Source of the DNA: Chiloscyllium plagiosum
Lineage: Eukaryota
Direction of reading: 5' to 3'
NCBI RefSeq assembly: GCF_004010195.1
Contig: NC_057753.1
Location: 13,565,628-13,627,627, forward strand
DNA length: 62,000 nucleotides
Positions 4,991 through 61,880 of the stretch are shown here, in pieces; position 1 is the first letter of the stretch; every line of letters starts with the position of its first letter. The position numbers and the translations under genes were made by a program. The notes below the pieces were generated by a model. That model made no database searches, was not told the DNA's origin, and was given only the letters and a program-made list of their open reading frames with translations.

Positions 4991-5153
4991 GAAGCGGGGT
5001 AGATAGATGCTCAGATGGAGCATGCCATTGGCAGAGACCAAATTAGCTGACTGGCTTGGTGCTGTGCTGCATAGTCAGTGATTCAGACATGTGTTTATTT
5101 CAGATTTTGTAACGGGCATGAAAACATTATTGACAGATCAGGATAAATTCTTC

Positions 5154-5299
5154 GAGGAGAAAGTGAGGACTGCAGATGGCTGGAGATCAGAGCAGAAAAT
5201 GCGTTGCTGGAAAAGCGCAGCGGGTCAGGCAGCATCCAAGGAGCAGGAGAATCGACGTTTCGGGCATGAGCCCTTCTTCAGGAATGAAGAAATTCCTGA
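5154..5299 (-). mobile_element. Short PLE pLTR-derived insertion with intact hammerhead core
   Basis: Minus strand CTGAAGA-A-GGGC-TCAT-GCCC-GAAAC-GTC; short inverted copy ATTCCTGAAG; 14-bp direct repeat AGATCAGGATAAAT at 5135-5148 and 5300-5313. Confidence 0.85.
5254..5281 (-). ncRNA. Minimal type I hammerhead ribozyme motif
   Basis: CUGAAGA core, 4-bp stem II, GAAA, palindromic ACGU stem III, GUC cleavage triplet. Confidence 0.75.
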
Positions 5300-5509
5300 A
5301 GATCAGGATAAATGTTCCTGAACAGCTTTTGCTGATCATTTCTCTGGGAATGAGCAGTCCCAAGCACAAAGAGCATTAGCCTTACTGGAAGCAAACTGGA
5401 GAGGTTGGCCAGTCCAGCAGATAGAAACCCTCTGAACCTACTACTTCACCCCACTCTCAAAACAAACATGGCTTAGTCCTGTGTGGGATTTTCCCCCACA
5501 TTTAAAATC

Positions 5510-5779: not shown

Positions 5780-6560
5780 AACAGCAGATCCAACTCTTGA
5801 ATTCACGAATGAATTTGCTGATCTTTCCACAGGTGTGATGACTGAGTGAATTCTTCCAGGAAATCAGAACACTTAAATGGCCTCTCCCTGGTTTGAACTC
5901 ACTGGTGTGCATGCATACTGGAGAACTGAGTGAATACGTTCCCACATGCCGACCAGCTGGATAGTTGGCCCCAGTGTGAGCTCACTGGTGTCTCAGTGTA
6001 TCCATTGAAATATTCACAGAGTTTCTTTCCAGATTCAGAGCAGGCAAATGCCCTTTCTCCAGTGGCAGCAGGCTGACCTTTCTGCAGGGCAAATGAGTCA
6101 GTGAATTCATTCCCACATTCAGAGCTGGTGAATGGCCTCTCCCTTCACGCAGTCCTCACATTTTTACAATTTTTTTTTCATGTGACGGGTATTGAAAGCT
6201 CAAGAATCAGCTGAAGCTCAACAATCAGCCGGTATGGTGTCTCCCTACTGTGAATAGTACAATGCCTTTTCTGGCTGTGTCATAGGTTAAAGGCTTTCCA
6301 TGTCAGTTCACTGGGGAGGCGGAGGATGGGGTTCATCTAAGTGCTTTTCCAGTGCAATAGATGTTTAAAACCTTTAATGTAGACAGAACAAATCGACATT
6401 TCTCCATCTGTGGTTATTCAAGTTCTGGTTAGTTTTGTGTCTTTCTGCACATGATGTCTGTTTTGAGATACGCATCTGCAAATCTTAACCCCCTAACATC
6501 CTGCAGAAGGAATTATAAAGTATTAAATTCAGATTAGAAATTCAGAAGATAATTCTAGTT
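5780..6560 (-). pseudogene. C2H2 zinc-finger pseudogene
   Basis: About 5 decayed fingers (ERPF-x-C-SE-C-G...HQ) with frameshifts, preceded by the cluster-typical 5' exon segment and splice acceptor near 6505. Confidence 0.8.
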
Positions 6561-6725: not shown

Positions 6726-6931
6726 AAGTGAGTAACTCTGTAAACTTACACTCCACACTGTCTTATAACATTCTCACTCTGCGGTTCCTAATATACGCCC
6801 TGCCCATTCTCTGGAAAGTGTTGATAAAATGTTCAGTGCTCACCACTTCCTGTCGTGGACGGAATCTGCACCCTTTCTGGGATCACTCCATTTTCCTTCC
6901 GTTTTAACAACCCAAGATTTATTTTTTTTCA

Positions 6932-7800
6932 ATGGAAAGGAAGATAGCAGACAGATGCTTGATCAGATGGGCCAATGGGCTGAGGAGTGGTAGATGGAGT
7001 TTAATTTACATAAATGCGAGGTGTTGCATTTTGGAAAAGCAAATCTTAGCAGGACTCATACACTTAATGATAAGGTCCGAGGGAGTGTTGCTGAACAAAG
7101 AGACCTTGGAGTGCAGGTTCATAGCTCTTTGAAAGTAGAGACACAGGTAGATAGGATAGTGAAGAAGGAGTTTGGTATGCTTTCCTTTATTAGTCAGAGC
7201 ATTCAGTATAGGAGTTGGGAGGTCATGTTGCAGCTGTACAGAATGTTGGTTGGGCCAATTTTGGAATATTGCATATAATTCTGGTCTCCTTCCTATCGGA
7301 AGGATGTTGTAAAACTTGAAAGGGTTCAGAAAAGATTCACAAAGATATTGCCGAGGTTGGAGAATTTGAGCTACAGGGAGAGGTTGAATAGGCTGGGTCT
7401 GTTTTCCCTGGAGTGTCAGAGGCTGAGGAGTGACCTTATAGAGGTTTATAAAATCATGAAGGACATGGATAGGGTAAATAGAGAAGGTCTTTTCCCTGGG
7501 GTGGGGGAGTCCAGAACTAGAGGGGCATAGGTTTAGGGTGAGAGGAGAAAAATATAAAAGAGACCTAAGGGGCAACCTTTTCACACAGAGGGTGGTGTGG
7601 TATGGAATGAGCTGCCAGAGGATGTGGTGGAGGCTGGTACATTTACAACATTTAAAAGGTATCTGGTTGGGTATATGAATAGGAAGGGTTTGAAGGGATA
7701 TGGGCCAGGTACTGGCAGGTGGGACTAGATTGGGTTGGCATATCTGGTTGGCATGCCGGGTTGGACCGAAGGCTCTGTTCCATGCTGTACATCTCAATGA
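6932..7800 (+). mobile_element. CR1/HER1-type LINE 3' fragment
   Basis: MEFNLHKCEVLHFGK ... LSYRERLNRLGLFSLE ... WNELP, then 3' UTR ending GGTTGGACCGAAGG. Confidence 0.95.
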
Positions 7801-7930
7801 CTGTGTATTGAGAAGAGGATGGAGGTTCAGTCTGGGTGAAGCTCACTCTTCATTTAGAGGGAGGAGCAGTAGCAGCAGCTTCAGAAGATTATTGTCCCAT
7901 GTTCACTCACAGACAATAGGGGAGCTCTGA

Positions 7931-15435: not shown

Positions 15436-15596
15436 GGGAATTTGCACAAATCGAACTGAAACCCAAGGGACATGTTTGTTCTGGATTTCTGCAACTGGAC
15501 TGGCAGTGATTTATTTTTTTTTCTTTTCTGAATTCGTTTCACAGAGTGTTAATTGCGAACGGAATCTGAAAGCCATTTCTGACAGTCAGCAGAGTG

Positions 15597-15752
15597 CAGC
15601 AGGGCAGCATCAAAGGAGAAGGAGAATCGACGTTTCGGGCATAAGCCCTTCTTCAGGAAAGCCCTTCTTCAGGAAAGCCCTTCTGCTGCGCTTTTCCAGC
15701 AACACATTTTTAAGCTCTGATCCCCAGCATCTGCAGTCCTCACTTTCTCCTC
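15597..15752. mobile_element. Short PLE pLTR insertion with inverted structure and intact hammerhead core
   Basis: First half minus (hammerhead core 15629-15656), second half plus; internal AGCCCTTCTTCAGGAA repeats; 12-bp TSD GTCAGCAGAGTG at 15585-15596 and 15753-15764. Confidence 0.85.
15629..15656 (-). ncRNA. Minimal type I hammerhead ribozyme motif
   Basis: CUGAAGA-A-GGGC-UUAU-GCCC-GAAAC-GUC. Confidence 0.75.
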
Positions 15753-16079
15753 GTCAGCAGAGTGATCAAGGACCCGAATGTCATTGCCTCCCAGCTGTGG
15801 GAGGAAACAGGTTTGTTTGTGCGAAGATTATTCCAATGTGTTTGTAACTCTAGAAGCAGCAAGATGTTCAAATTCTTAGTTATGTTACCCCTGTGTGTTC
15901 AGTTGTGAGCCCTGCAGCTGAGGAAGGAGATACAGGCTCGAGGGAGGCGCAGATTTGTCCAAATAATGCCTCGTCTCTTTGAAAGAACTGTCATGTTTAG
16001 TCCCCATCACCCACTCCTTGATTTTAACCTATAAATTTCTCATTCTTCAGTACCTGCAAACTTCCTTTTAAATTCCTTA

Positions 16080-19024: not shown

Positions 19025-19478
19025 AAAGTTTGTGCGAAGATTTGTAGCTCGGGTGCTCGTTGTTATTCTGTTCGCCGAGCTGGAAGTTTTTGTTGCAAAC
19101 GTTTCGTCCCCTGGCTAGGCGACATCATCAGTGCTTGGGAGCCTCCTGCGAAGCGCTTCTTTGATGTTTCCTCCAGTGTTTATAGTGGTCTGTCCCTGCC
19201 GCTTCCGGTTGTCAGTTTCAGCTGTCCGCTGTAGTGGTTGGTATATTGGGTCCGGGTCGATGTGTTTGTTGATGGAGTTTGTGGATGAATGCCATGCCTC
19301 TAGGAATTCCCTGGCTGTTCTCTGTCTGGCTTGCCCTATGATAGTAGTGTTGTTCCAGTCGAATTCAGGTTGCTTGTTGTCTGCGTGTGTGGCTACTAAG
19401 GATAGCTGGTCGTGTCGTTTCGTGGCTAGTTGATGTTCATGTATGCGGATAGTTAGCTGTCTTCCTGTTTATCCTATA
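19025..19478 (-). mobile_element. Young 5'-truncated Penelope/Poseidon-type PLE (GIY-YIG C-terminus plus pLTR)
   Basis: Open minus frame TGRQLTIRIHEHQLATKRHDQLSLVATH...FDWNNTTIIGQ...AREFLEAWHS..SINKHID; 11-bp TSD TAAATGTTATC at 19014-19024 and 19479-19489. Confidence 0.9.
19095..19134 (-). ncRNA. Type I hammerhead ribozyme motif in PLE pLTR
   Basis: GCA-CUGAUGA-U-GUCGCCU-AGCC-AGGGGAC-GAAAC-GUU-UGC: stem I GCA/UGC, stem II with one mismatch, ACGU stem III. Confidence 0.8.
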
Positions 19479-28169: not shown

Positions 28170-28430
28170 CCAACTCCCTGACCCGCAGTCCCCCAAATCT
28201 GTGTTCCTTTCTTTGTCTTTCCTCTGGCTCTGTCTCCATTCATCAGCCTCCCTTCCCCCACATTAATCAGCATACATATTACCATTTCCTAGCTACCTTC
28301 CATTCTGACAAAGGGTCACTGGACCTGAAACCTTATCTCTGTTTTTGTGTCACAGATGCAGCCAGACTTGCAAAGTTCCTCCAGTGATGTATTTTTTTTC
28401 AGAACTTCAGCCTCTGCAGGTTTTTTTTTG
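28170..28430 (+). mobile_element. PLE 3' pLTR remnant with decayed hammerhead
   Basis: Pyrimidine-rich leader, CTGACAAAGGGTCACTGGACCTGAAACCTT at 28305-28333, then CAGATGCAGCCAGAC. Confidence 0.65.
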
Positions 28431-38660: not shown

Positions 38661-38783
38661 TTTTCTCTCCCGTTCCCTGAAATCAGTATACCTCCATTCC
38701 ACAATCTTTCCCACCATTCTCATTCTGTAGCACCTAAAATTCTCATACTCCCCATTATCCAGAAGGAGCTGGTTAACAGATCC

Positions 38784-38873
38784 TGTTCTGAGGAAGGGTC
38801 ACTCGACCCAAAACGTTAACTCTGATTTCTTTCCACAGATGCTGCCGACCTTTTGCAACAACTTGTGTTTTTG
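38784..38873 (+). mobile_element. 90-bp PLE pLTR insertion with near-intact hammerhead and TSD
   Basis: GTT-CTGAGGA-AGGGTC-ACTC-GACCC-AAAAC-GTT-AAC (G12 to A); TSD TAACAGATCC at 38774-38783 and 38874-38883. Confidence 0.8.
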
Positions 38874-39309
38874 TAACAGATCCGTGACCCGCACCCTCCT
38901 TAGGTTGAATTCATTTCCTTTTAGTTGTTGCAAGTAAATAGCTTGAGCGCAGAAGTTTCTTTTTTAAAAAGAAGAAACCTAAAGACATAGTTGTGCTCAT
39001 AGATTTCGGACGGGAGGAGGTTTCAGTCTGGATGAAGCTCAATCTTTATTAGAGAGGAGAAGCAGGAGCAACAGCTTTACTGGGCAGAAATGAGCAGTTT
39101 CAGAACCTCATTGCTGCACGTCTGCACTCAGACCATAAGGGAGCTCTGATTGGCTGGAAATTGAAAATTCTTCTGGTCCTTTGGCATTTCCCATTAGTCA
39201 AATTACTGGATTGTGACGGAAAAAGGTGCAGAACACGAATCCATATGAGATTGCAAGAAACTGGGATCCATGACGTGACGTTCCAGCCAATAGAAAAAGA
39301 AGATGGAGT

Positions 39310-47114: not shown

Positions 47115-47460
47115 GGAGAGTCAAAAGTGTGGTGCTGGAAAAGCACAGCAGATCAGGCAGCATCCGAGGAGCAGGAGAATCGACATATCAGGCATAAGCC
47201 CTTCAGGAATGTGGAAGGGGAGGGATGGGAATTGGGAGATAAATAGGAGGATGGGGGTTGGGGTGGGCTTGAAGGAAGCTGGAAAGGCGATAAGTAGGTG
47301 CAGGTGGGGTTTGATGGTGATGGGTCAGAGGGGAGGGTGGAGTGGATAGGTGGGAAGGAAGATGGGCAGGTTGGACAGTTCAAGGGGGCGGTGCCGAGTT
47401 TGAGGTTTGGAACTGGGATGAGGTGGGGGAGGGGAAGCAGAGCTGGGAGATTTAGTCATG
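47115..47460 (-). mobile_element. PLE 3' region and pLTR with decayed hammerhead
   Basis: GCTGGAAAAGCACAGCAG...GAGAATCGACATATCAGGCATAAGCCCTTCAGG followed by a purine-rich segment. Confidence 0.75.
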
Positions 47461-48904: not shown

Positions 48905-49041
48905 TAATACAATTCCTGATGAAGGGCTTATGCCTGAAATGTTGATTCTCCTGCTTCTTGGATGCTGCCTAACCTGCTGTGCTTTTCCAGCATGACACAC
49001 TTGACTCTGATTTCCAGCATCTGCTGTCCTCACTTTCTCCC
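48905..49041 (+). mobile_element. Short PLE pLTR insertion with CpG-decayed hammerhead and TSD
   Basis: CTGATGA-A-GGGC-TTAT-GCCT-GAAAT-GTT at 48916-48943; TGTT(C/T)ACATGCAG at 48892-48904 and 49042-49054. Confidence 0.85.
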
Positions 49042-56979: not shown

Positions 56980-58020
56980 AAGGGCAAGACTTACACAATT
57001 AAAGATAGTGTTGTAGAACAGGGAGACACAGGGGTTCTGATTCACAACCCTTTGAAGTTTGCGTCACATATCGACAGGGTAGTTAAGAAGGCATTCAGTA
57101 CACTTGCCTTCACTGGTCACACCTCTGGACACAGGAGTTGGGACATCATATTGAGGCTGTACAGGATGTTTAGAGCTTAAACATGTGTTGCTGGAAAAGC
57201 GCAGCAGGTCAGGCAGCATCAAAGGAGAAGGAGAATCGAAGTTTCGGGCATAAGCCGTTGGATTATATGCAGTTTTGGTAATCCTACTGTCAGAAGAATA
57301 TTATGAAATTGGAGAGGGTTCAGAAAAGATTTACCAGGATGTTATGGAGTTTAGATTAGACTACTTAAGAGTGTGGAAACAGGCCCTTCGGCCCAACAAG
57401 TCCACACCGACCCGCCGAAGCGCAACCCACCAGACCCATTCCCTTAGATTTACCCATTGACCTAACACTGGCAATTTAGCATGGCCAATTCACCTAACCT
57501 GCACATTTTTGGACTGTGGGAGGAAACCGGAGCACCCGGAGGAAACCCACGCAGACACGGGGAGAATGTGCAAACTCCACACAGTCAGTCACCAGAGGCG
57601 AGAATTTAACCCGTGTCTCTGGCGCTGTGAGGCAGCAGTGCTAACCACTGTGCCACCATGCCACCCATGAGTGTGGAGGGTTTGATTTATAAAAGTAGGC
57701 TGAGACCTTTTTCACTGGAATTAGGCGTTTTAGGGGTGGCCTTATAGATGTTTAGAAAATCCTGAAGGGCATGGATAAGGTTAATAGCAAGGGTCTTTAC
57801 CAGAGGAGTTCAAAACCAGGGGGCACAATTCTGAGGTGAGAGGAGGAAGTTTTAAAAAGGGGAATGAGGGCAACAAGTTTGAAAGAGTCATTCATGTGTG
57901 GAATTAAATGCCAGAGGATCTGGTGGAAGCAGGTACAGTTACAACTTTTAAAAGGTATTCAGTTAAGTGCATGAATAGGGACCAAAGGCAGGCAGGCAGG
58001 TGGAACCAGTTTAATTTGGG
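56980..58020 (+). mobile_element. Decayed CR1 3' fragment with nested PLE piece (57172-57257) and SINE
   Basis: RT C-terminal remnants flank both insertions. Confidence 0.8.
57351..57666 (-). mobile_element. HE1-like SINE
   Basis: Full SINE on the minus strand. Confidence 0.95.
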
Positions 58021-61254: not shown

Positions 61255-61880
61255 ATCATAAATAGGAACAGGGTGATGCTGTTCAGCCCATTGAGCATGC
61301 TCCCCTGTTCAATAGGATCATGACTGATCAGATATTCCTCATGTCCACTTTCCTGCCCTGTCCCTGCAACCTTTGATTCCCGACTGATCAAGAGTCCATC
61401 CATCTCAGCCATAAAGTACACAAAGACTCTGCCCTCACTGCTGACTGTAGGCAGCCAGGAGGCTGGAAGAACACAGCTAGCCAGGCAGCATCAGGAGGTG
61501 GAGAAGTCGACGTTTTGGGTGTTCCACTGCACAGTCTGTTCAAAAGGTGCCCACTCTGAATAAGTTATCCACCTTACACCTGAAACGTTGACTTGTCCAC
61601 CTCCTGATGCCGCCTGACTTGCTGCCTTCCAATCTCCTGCCTGTCTACTTTGGATTCCAGCATCTGCAGTTACTTTGTTTCACAGCTCGCTGTGGCAAAG
61701 AGTTCCAAAGACTCAGAATTCTCTGAGAGAAGAAATTCCTCCTCATCTCAGAATTAAATTGGTGTCCATTTCTTCTAAGACTCTGCCCTCTTCTGCTTGT
61801 AGAATCTCCCATGAAGGGAAACAGTCTTTCAGCAGTTATCCCATTATGCTTCTTACGAATCTTACGTACTTCAATGAGAC
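61255..61880 (-). mobile_element. Decayed CR1 3' fragment interrupted by a fold-back element
   Basis: CR1 3' UTR (GATCATGACTGATC) and RT C-terminal remnants. Confidence 0.75.
61449..61680. mobile_element. Fold-back PLE pLTR insertion
   Basis: Arms AGGCAGCATCAGGAGGTGGAGAAGTCGACGTTTTGGGTG / CACCTGAAACGTTGACTTGTCCACCTCCTGATGCCGCCT; imperfect TSD CACTGCTGACTGT / CACAGCTCGCTGT. Confidence 0.75.

What the first reader, a model, noticed from the sequence alone, without database searches (positions are those of the whole stretch)
5135..5313. About 150-bp ribozyme-carrying insertion with TSD and micro-inversion: a possible non-autonomous retrozyme-like family
Seen: the insert has no ORF, only a pLTR 3' segment that starts a few nt before the intact hammerhead core. 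It is followed by a 10-nt inverted copy (CTTCAGGAAT / ATTCCTGAAG) and flanked by a 14-bp direct repeat. Related inserts at 15597, 48905 and 38784 also break close to the hammerhead core. Inference: the 5' ends cluster at the ribozyme, suggesting self-cleavage or the hairpin defines the mobilised RNA or the RT stop.
Basis: partly seen in the sequence, partly recalled or inferred. Interest (0 to 1): 0.7.

Follow-up and report, generated by a model that had tools for sequence, protein, structure and literature searches.

The report
Penelope stub starting at ribozyme edge
This 151-base insert is a cut-short copy of a very common Penelope-type jumping gene; such stubs mostly begin just in front of the gene's small self-cutting RNA motif and not at its cut site, which likely marks where the gene's RNA starts, so it is a clue to how these elements copy themselves and not a new family.

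Summary
The insert, its 14-bp duplication and the micro-inversion (11 bp, overlapping the duplication by 3) are real. It is the pLTR end of an abundant Neptune-type Penelope-like element (PLE). In 1.57 Mb of evenly sampled genome, 70 of 125 segments that reach the hammerhead core stop within 11 nt before it, 9 to 25 times the neighbouring rate. The mode is 4 nt before the core, 31 nt upstream of the predicted cut site, where only 6 of 187 ends fall. Short and long copies are mixed on a tree (18 changes, 18.0 shuffled) and no tandem arrays were found, so this is no separate retrozyme family. A second family stops at the same place and has a TATA-like box and initiator there; a Poseidon-like hammerhead family does not stop (at most 2 of 39). 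Most likely the reverse transcriptase primes on the 5' pLTR and runs off the transcript's start (0.6; not shown by RNA data). The scan noted this pile-up before on other DNA; I did not find it in print.

The parts
5135..5148 (.). Target-site duplication, copy at the element's 3' end (14 bp)
   Evidence: lengths in 49 other copies 8-21 bp, most often 14
5150..5292 (-). Direct segment of the PLE pLTR, from 11 nt before the hammerhead core to the end of the tail (subfamily A, 96% to its consensus)
5150..5189 (-). About 40-bp tail between the two 3' end classes (+88 to +95 and +123 to +131), the inferred two reverse-transcription start sites
   Evidence: PMC11167929 for the meaning of the tail
5250..5285 (-). 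Minimal type I hammerhead: helix I 5' strand 5282-5285, core 5275-5281, helix II 5270-5273 with 5262-5265, second box 5258-5261, predicted cut between 5254 and 5253; helix I holds a U-U mismatch; activity untested
   Evidence: PMC4209133
5285..5285 (-). Modal 5' end of subfamily A copies (4 nt before the core); A of an initiator-like word; inferred transcription start
   Evidence: 21 of 49 subfamily A ends between -14 and 0
5292..5302 (+). Micro-inversion: 11-bp inverted copy of positions -4 to +6, the last 3 bases shared with the duplication
   Evidence: 1 of 22 comparable solo copies has a similar one
5300..5313 (.). Target-site duplication, copy at the element's 5' end
15585..15764 (+). Related subfamily A insertion: 12-bp duplication, inverted arm ending at -3 with a stutter, direct arm from +58
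48912..49040 (+). Related older copy (subfamily B) starting at -4
38774..38883 (+). Stub of a second hammerhead family (E), 10-bp duplication, starting 3 nt before its core

Best explanation
The insert is a short copy of the pLTR end of an abundant Neptune-type Penelope-like element, and its start, like that of most such stubs, lies just before the hammerhead, likely because the element's RNA begins there and the reverse transcriptase runs off that end. Shown: parent element with RT, cysteine linker and GIY-YIG-type endonuclease; two fixed 3' ends; a sharp pile-up of 5' ends at -11 to 0; no separate lineage of short copies. Inferred: a promoter in the pLTR starts the RNA 4 to 8 nt before the core; the protein primes at the internal start site of the 5' pLTR copy and reaches the RNA end after about 130 nt; the product is then joined to the target, paired with a second cDNA (inversions), or jumps to another place on an RNA (partial tandems). 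Copies primed at the 3' pLTR or on read-through RNA pass this point. The micro-inversion is likely a brief fold-back of the new DNA end before it joined the target by 3 shared bases. Such stubs would be dead, lacking the sequence beyond the start site that a related protein needs.
For: Pile-up: 70 of 125 segments reaching the core end at -11 to 0; 8.8 times the rate of +1 to +60 and 25 times that of -60 to -12; subfamily A alone 26 of 53, with 0 of 23 ending in the next 49 nt; copies without an inverted partner 17 of 45. Reads of an unrelated RNA run show the same step, 252/188 to 91/65 in depth. Copies that run on into the ORF stop there too (subfamily A 8 of 10), and 11 of 22 internal jumps leave from -3 to -6, as expected of a physical RNA end. 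Family E, with other letters at -4 to -1, stops at the same place (about 26 of 42) and its long copies carry a TATA-like word at -33 to -35 and an initiator-like word with A at -4. In A to D an AT island lies at -34 (A) or -36 (C, D) and the mode shifts from -4 to -8. A Poseidon-like family shows at most 2 of 39 (Fisher p 1.5e-9). About half stop and half pass, as two priming sites per RNA would give. Start sites in pLTRs, internal priming, the tail, and TATA plus initiator words in pLTRs are known (PMC8557442, PMC2377424, PMC11167929, PMC3846280).
Against: No RNA 5' end was seen: the one run that could be laid gave both-strand read-through and no place where many molecules begin. The extra G expected from a copied cap is weak: 26 of 72 against 26 of 98 in controls (p 0.12); at the two modal sites, chosen afterwards, 18 of 34 (p 0.005), falling to 11 of 24 (p 0.06) without arm-microhomology cases. 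In subfamilies C and D only 2 of 11 ORF-extending copies stop at the wall. The Poseidon-like family has a TATA-like word near -53 but no pile-up 30 nt after it. The wall also coincides with the first base of helix I, so promoter and RNA structure cannot be told apart by sequence. Paired segments are not independent, so the p values for all segments are too small.
Confidence: 0.6

Rival explanations
1. The RNA continues upstream, and the wall comes from structure: either the RNA is trimmed back to a protein-bound ribozyme, or the new DNA snaps into a small hairpin just past the core and the enzyme falls off.
For: The mode is the first base of helix I. A 7-bp hairpin spans -11 to +7 in the window's copy. 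Many inversion joints are near-symmetric here. It fits the leakiness in subfamilies C and D.
Against: Subfamilies C and D have little hairpin (-1.7 and -0.8 kcal/mol) yet stop as often, 14 of 21 and 4 of 9. The Poseidon-like family has a well-paired helix I and no wall. A fold blocks a reverse transcriptase where it enters, not where it leaves (established knowledge). Trimming to a protected fragment could not be tested.
Confidence: 0.22
2. The element's endonuclease nicks the new copy at an ATT word 4 nt before the core and so trims it.
For: A related protein prefers ATT and cuts its own pLTR DNA (PMC11167929). Subfamily A peaks at that word.
Against: Family E has no ATT there in most copies and stops at the same place. 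Subfamilies C and D have ATT at -4 but peak at -8.
Confidence: 0.07
3. A non-autonomous, retrozyme-like or SINE-like short family with a fixed 5' end that multiplies on its own.
For: Many copies share one short form, about 35 in 1.5 Mb. Retrozymes are reported to derive from pLTRs (bioRxiv 10.64898/2026.07.22.740005). Two loci share one internal jump joint (L205, L206).
Against: Short and long copies are unclustered on the tree, 18 changes against 18.0 shuffled, with at least 8 forced by strong branches. Of 3 close same-strand pairs none is a head-to-tail unit. The stubs share no upstream flank. They lack the sequence 3' of the priming site that the anole protein requires (PMC11167929). The tree rests on 129 columns and is weakly resolved.
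Confidence: 0.06
4. Hammerhead self-cleavage makes the template's 5' end.
For: A small excess sits exactly at the predicted cut: 6 of 187 ends at +28 against about 1 per position (Poisson p 0.0005). This may be a real minor route.
Against: The main peak is 31 nt upstream of the cut and keeps the whole ribozyme. At least three of the six +28 ends are inversion joints at a 4-base palindrome. Helix I has a mismatch in most copies. Cleavage was not needed for insertion in vitro and no RNA reads ended at the cut in the anole element (PMC11167929).
Confidence: 0.05

Closest known systems
Endonuclease-positive Penelope-like elements, Neptune clade (PMC8557442, PMC3846280; passages)
   Same: RT, C-x4-C-x2-C linker, C-terminal GIY-YIG-type domain, pLTR with hammerhead, heavy 5' truncation, inverted 5' copy, 30-40-bp tail on one end, duplications of about 8-20 bp, palindromes at the pLTR 5' end.
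   Different: Those passages describe truncation without a preferred site; here more than half of the segments that reach the ribozyme stop at its front edge.
Poseidon element PAc of the green anole (PMC11167929; parts 1-2 of 4)
   Same: Two internal priming sites that define the tail; AT-rich targets; ribozyme not needed for insertion.
   Different: In PAc the ORF starts inside helix II; here about 160 nt after the core. The Poseidon-like family of this genome shows no pile-up.
Minimal type I hammerheads of metazoan PLEs (PMC4209133; parts 1-2 of 4)
   Same: Core boxes, bulged base before helix II, palindromic helix III without loop, mostly single dispersed motifs in truncated copies.
   Different: Helix II is 4 bp and helix I has a mismatch; cleavage untested.
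Non-LTR retrozymes (PMC7229834 passages; bioRxiv 10.64898/2026.07.22.740005 parts 1-3 of 5)
   Same: Short, non-coding, type I hammerhead, related to pLTRs.
   Different: Retrozymes are tandem repeats of 150-450-bp units with canonical hammerheads, expressed as circles; this is a dispersed single stub with a minimal hammerhead, a tail and a target duplication.
Minus-strand strong-stop DNA of LTR elements (recalled, no call)
   Same: Works like it, if the inference holds: priming near the RNA 5' end, run-off, then a jump.
   Different: Target-primed, no tRNA primer, no integrase; not a member.

Membership tests
EN+ Penelope-like element | Parent with RT and C-terminal GIY-YIG-type endonuclease in line with this pLTR | tested here: met
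   L031 minus strand; Pfam RVT_1 only weak, E 0.003, below cut-off, and no Pfam hit for the frameshifted endonuclease part; endonuclease and DKG motifs read by eye, motif names partly recalled
EN+ Penelope-like element | pLTR with minimal hammerhead | tested here: met
   helix II kept in 61 of 88 copies while its loop differs by subfamily
EN+ Penelope-like element | 30-40-bp tail and inverted tail-less 5' copy | tested here: met
   two 3' end classes; 47 of 114 tail-bearing copies have an inverted partner, 43 of them ending at +80 to +96
EN+ Penelope-like element | Target-site duplication | tested here: met
   found in 49 of 114 copies
Neptune clade | C-x2-5-C-x2-C linker between RT and endonuclease | tested here: met
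   10 loci with the linker in its own context; Nematis also has such a motif (PMC8557442)
Neptune clade | RT phylogeny with named Neptune elements | not tested
   no reference PLE proteins were at hand
Non-LTR retrozyme | Head-to-tail tandem units, each with a hammerhead | tested here: not met
   3 close same-strand pairs in 1.57 Mb, none a tandem unit
Non-LTR retrozyme | Canonical type I hammerhead | tested here: not met
   minimal motif; no Rfam match
Non-LTR retrozyme | Unit ends set by self-cleavage | tested here: not met
   mode at -4, cut at +27/+28; 6 of 187 ends at +28
Non-LTR retrozyme | Linear and circular monomer RNAs | tested here: inconclusive
   only a poly(A) single-cell run could be laid; one 4-read back-joint of 35 nt and no start or end peaks
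Non-autonomous PLE family | Short copies form their own lineage | tested here: not met
Non-autonomous PLE family | Short copy can be copied again | not testable with these tools
   needs an in vitro or cell assay

The most novel reading that the evidence does not exclude
Neptune-type elements start copying at the 5' pLTR, make a strong-stop DNA of about 130 nt that ends at the capped start of the RNA, whose first bases are the hammerhead, and must then jump to the 3' copy of the same sequence to copy the body. The stubs would be failed jumps, tens of thousands per genome, and pseudo-LTRs would arise by a retrovirus-like strand transfer in a target-primed element.
Probability: 0.3. Interest if true: 0.7.

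Novelty: new member of a known kind. Interest (0 to 1): 0.38.

Why it matters
The insert itself is one of some hundred thousands of dead copies. The pattern behind it matters more: how PLEs form their pseudo-LTRs, and what their hammerhead is for, are open questions (PMC8557442, PMC11167929). A sharp, clade-specific 5' wall with core-promoter spacing gives a single base to test by cap mapping, and argues that cutting by the ribozyme does not make the main template.

Tried and rejected
Rfam: nothing relevant. Folding the insert: no more stable than shuffles, z 0.01. A single reference overstated the pile-up because subfamilies differ upstream; redone with seven subfamily references. Sequencing runs: no RNA holder listed; X22 laid no reads, X21 showed read-through only. 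Splice acceptor at the wall: rejected, no AG before -4 in A, C or D. Type III hammerhead cutting at -4: rejected, helix III cannot pair (by eye). Cap G test: weak. NCBIfam: only a faint RT hit. The dimer-cleavage paper PMC5785218 is not held. The text supplements of PMC11167929 held none of the search terms; its figure of genomic copy ends could not be seen and may already show a 5' pile-up. Supplements of the bioRxiv preprint were not seen. Look-up of earlier findings by sequence: none. Rows dropped: 79 of 302 segments (under 84% identity or 3' end before +68); 36 of the 223 kept were censored; L221 dropped as the same locus as L053; 44 family E rows reduced to 42 loci and 49 family F rows to 39.

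Full report
The observation. The window holds a 14-bp exact direct repeat at 5135-5148 and 5300-5313 with 151 bases between. On the minus strand these read as a minimal type I hammerhead with core C3 at 5281, followed by about 100 nt to the 3' end. All positions below count from C3 along the element. The predicted cut is after +27. An 11-bp inverted copy of -4 to +6 lies at 5292-5302 and shares 3 bases with the duplication. Rfam does not see the motif; it fits the minimal hammerhead of PMC4209133 (parts 1-2 of 4 read).

The parent. A genome search gave 3532 first-look candidates, 40 scored. Many continue upstream into a pyrimidine-rich region, an endonuclease and an RT. Ten loci show a C-x4-C-x2-C linker, which points to the Neptune clade (PMC8557442, passages); no RT tree was made. 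Downstream of the tail other copies continue into an ORF with an inferred start near +162. The genome is 3.56 Gb; that it is of shark type is recalled and untested.

Unbiased sample. I took 157 evenly spaced 10-kb stretches, 1.57 Mb, 71 kb of it withheld. One reference confounds subfamilies, so seven references were used. Of 302 segments, 223 were kept (84% identity or more, 3' end at +68 or later), 36 of them censored. The 114 tail-bearing copies give about 76 per Mb, or roughly 270,000 in the genome if the sample is typical. The 3' ends fall into two classes about 38 nt apart, the known tail. Of the 114, 47 have an inverted partner and 49 a detectable duplication of 8-21 bp.

The pile-up. 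Of 125 segments that reach the core, 70 end at -11 to 0, 51 go on and 4 are censored. The rate per base is 8.8 times that of +1 to +60 and 25 times that of -60 to -12. In the young subfamily A, where alignment error is least, 26 of 53 stop there and 0 of 23 in the next 49 nt. Copies with no inverted partner do the same, 17 of 45. Exact matching puts the mode at -4 in A (21 of 49) and -8 in C and D (7 of 21) (sample plus ORF-selected loci). RNA reads from a public run show the same step, on both strands, as read-through of genomic copies. At the cut site there are 6 of 187 ends, above the local rate of about 1, but several are inversion joints at a palindrome.

Not a family of its own. On a tree of 54 sampled copies plus the window's, the short label needs 18 changes, as many as shuffled labels (18.0); the tree is short and weakly resolved, but strong branches force 8. 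The window's copy sits among long subfamily A copies. No head-to-tail units were found, and the stubs share no flank. The retrozyme features (tandem units, canonical hammerhead, circles; PMC7229834 passages; bioRxiv 10.64898/2026.07.22.740005 parts 1-3 of 5) are not met or not seen.

Controls from other families. A reference-free scan found 107 hammerhead-like motifs, nearly all in three families. Family E, to which the window's 38784 insert belongs, has other letters before the core, yet about 26 of 42 loci start at -11 to 0 (two false stops removed by eye), and 29 of 42 lack the upstream region by score. Most of its 12 long copies carry a TATA-like word near -33 to -35 and an initiator-like word with A at -4 (consensus words recalled). 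Family F, Poseidon-like by its ATG in helix II and AC-rich 3' part (compare PMC11167929), has at most 2 of 39 ends there. So a hammerhead alone does not make the wall.

Copies that run into the ORF. Among 30 subfamily A loci chosen by ORF sequence, 8 of the 10 that reach the core stop at -7 to -1, and 11 of 22 internal jumps leave from -3 to -6. Among 30 C/D loci only 2 of 11 stop; this is against a single fixed RNA start and needs read-through RNA.

Mechanism. Most likely the RNA starts 4 to 8 nt before the core, the protein primes at the internal site in the 5' pLTR, and the copy ends at the RNA end. Start sites in pLTRs are known (PMC8557442, PMC2377424, PMC6765202, passages), as are TATA and initiator words and 5' palindromes in pLTRs (PMC3846280, passages) and internal priming that needs sequence 3' of the site (PMC11167929, parts 1-2 of 4). 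The direct signs are missing: no RNA start was seen and the cap G is only suggestive. The window's own copy matches to -11; its last 7 bases may be element sequence or a second fold-back, so this one copy does not prove the model. Micro-inversions are uncommon, 1 of 22 comparable copies. Structural stalls, nicking at ATT and self-cleavage are weighed as rivals.

Novelty. The insertion is an ordinary product of a known kind. The 5' wall was not found in seven literature searches; one key paper was not held and one supplementary figure could not be seen. Earlier notes of this scan report the same pile-up and the cap idea on other DNA; I had written the idea down before, and they are not independent support. 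The eight notes were seen only as short listings, which mention neither the two control families nor the jump starts.

Noticed in passing
L191, L203, L205, L206, L210, L212, L213: In 7 of 30 ORF-selected subfamily A loci the ORF part ends at +199 to +205; a preferred RNA 3' end or landing site, or an effect of the query ending there.
   Followed up: no
L205 and L206: Two loci on different contigs share the same internal jump joint; a hot spot, or a small self-copying deletion form.
   Followed up: no
L224:1323-2078 (oriented copy): Mini-element with both pLTRs starting at -47 around 400 nt of ORF; a candidate for a true non-autonomous form, since it keeps the sequence beyond the priming site.
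   Followed up: no
window 15585-15764: The inverted arm stutters: a 16-nt piece at the wall is repeated before the direct arm begins.
   Followed up: partly
window near 19131, minus strand: Copy of the Poseidon-like hammerhead family F, with a TATA-like word about 53 nt before the core; four F ends fall at -53 to -57.
   Followed up: partly
window near 28304, plus strand: Long copy of family E that keeps the upstream region.
   Followed up: partly
window 47117-47436, 57172-57259, 61462-61670: Further copies of the same families: a long tail-less copy, a solo tail-less stub and an old inverted pair.
   Followed up: no
window 5899-6144, minus strand: Frame that looks like decayed C2H2 zinc-finger sequence (by eye).
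   Followed up: no
window 6900-7840: CR1/L2-like LINE fragment (by eye, name recalled).
   Followed up: no
L094, L109, L178, L049: One young subfamily has a fully paired 4-bp helix I, unlike the rest; the best candidate for a cleavage assay.
   Followed up: no
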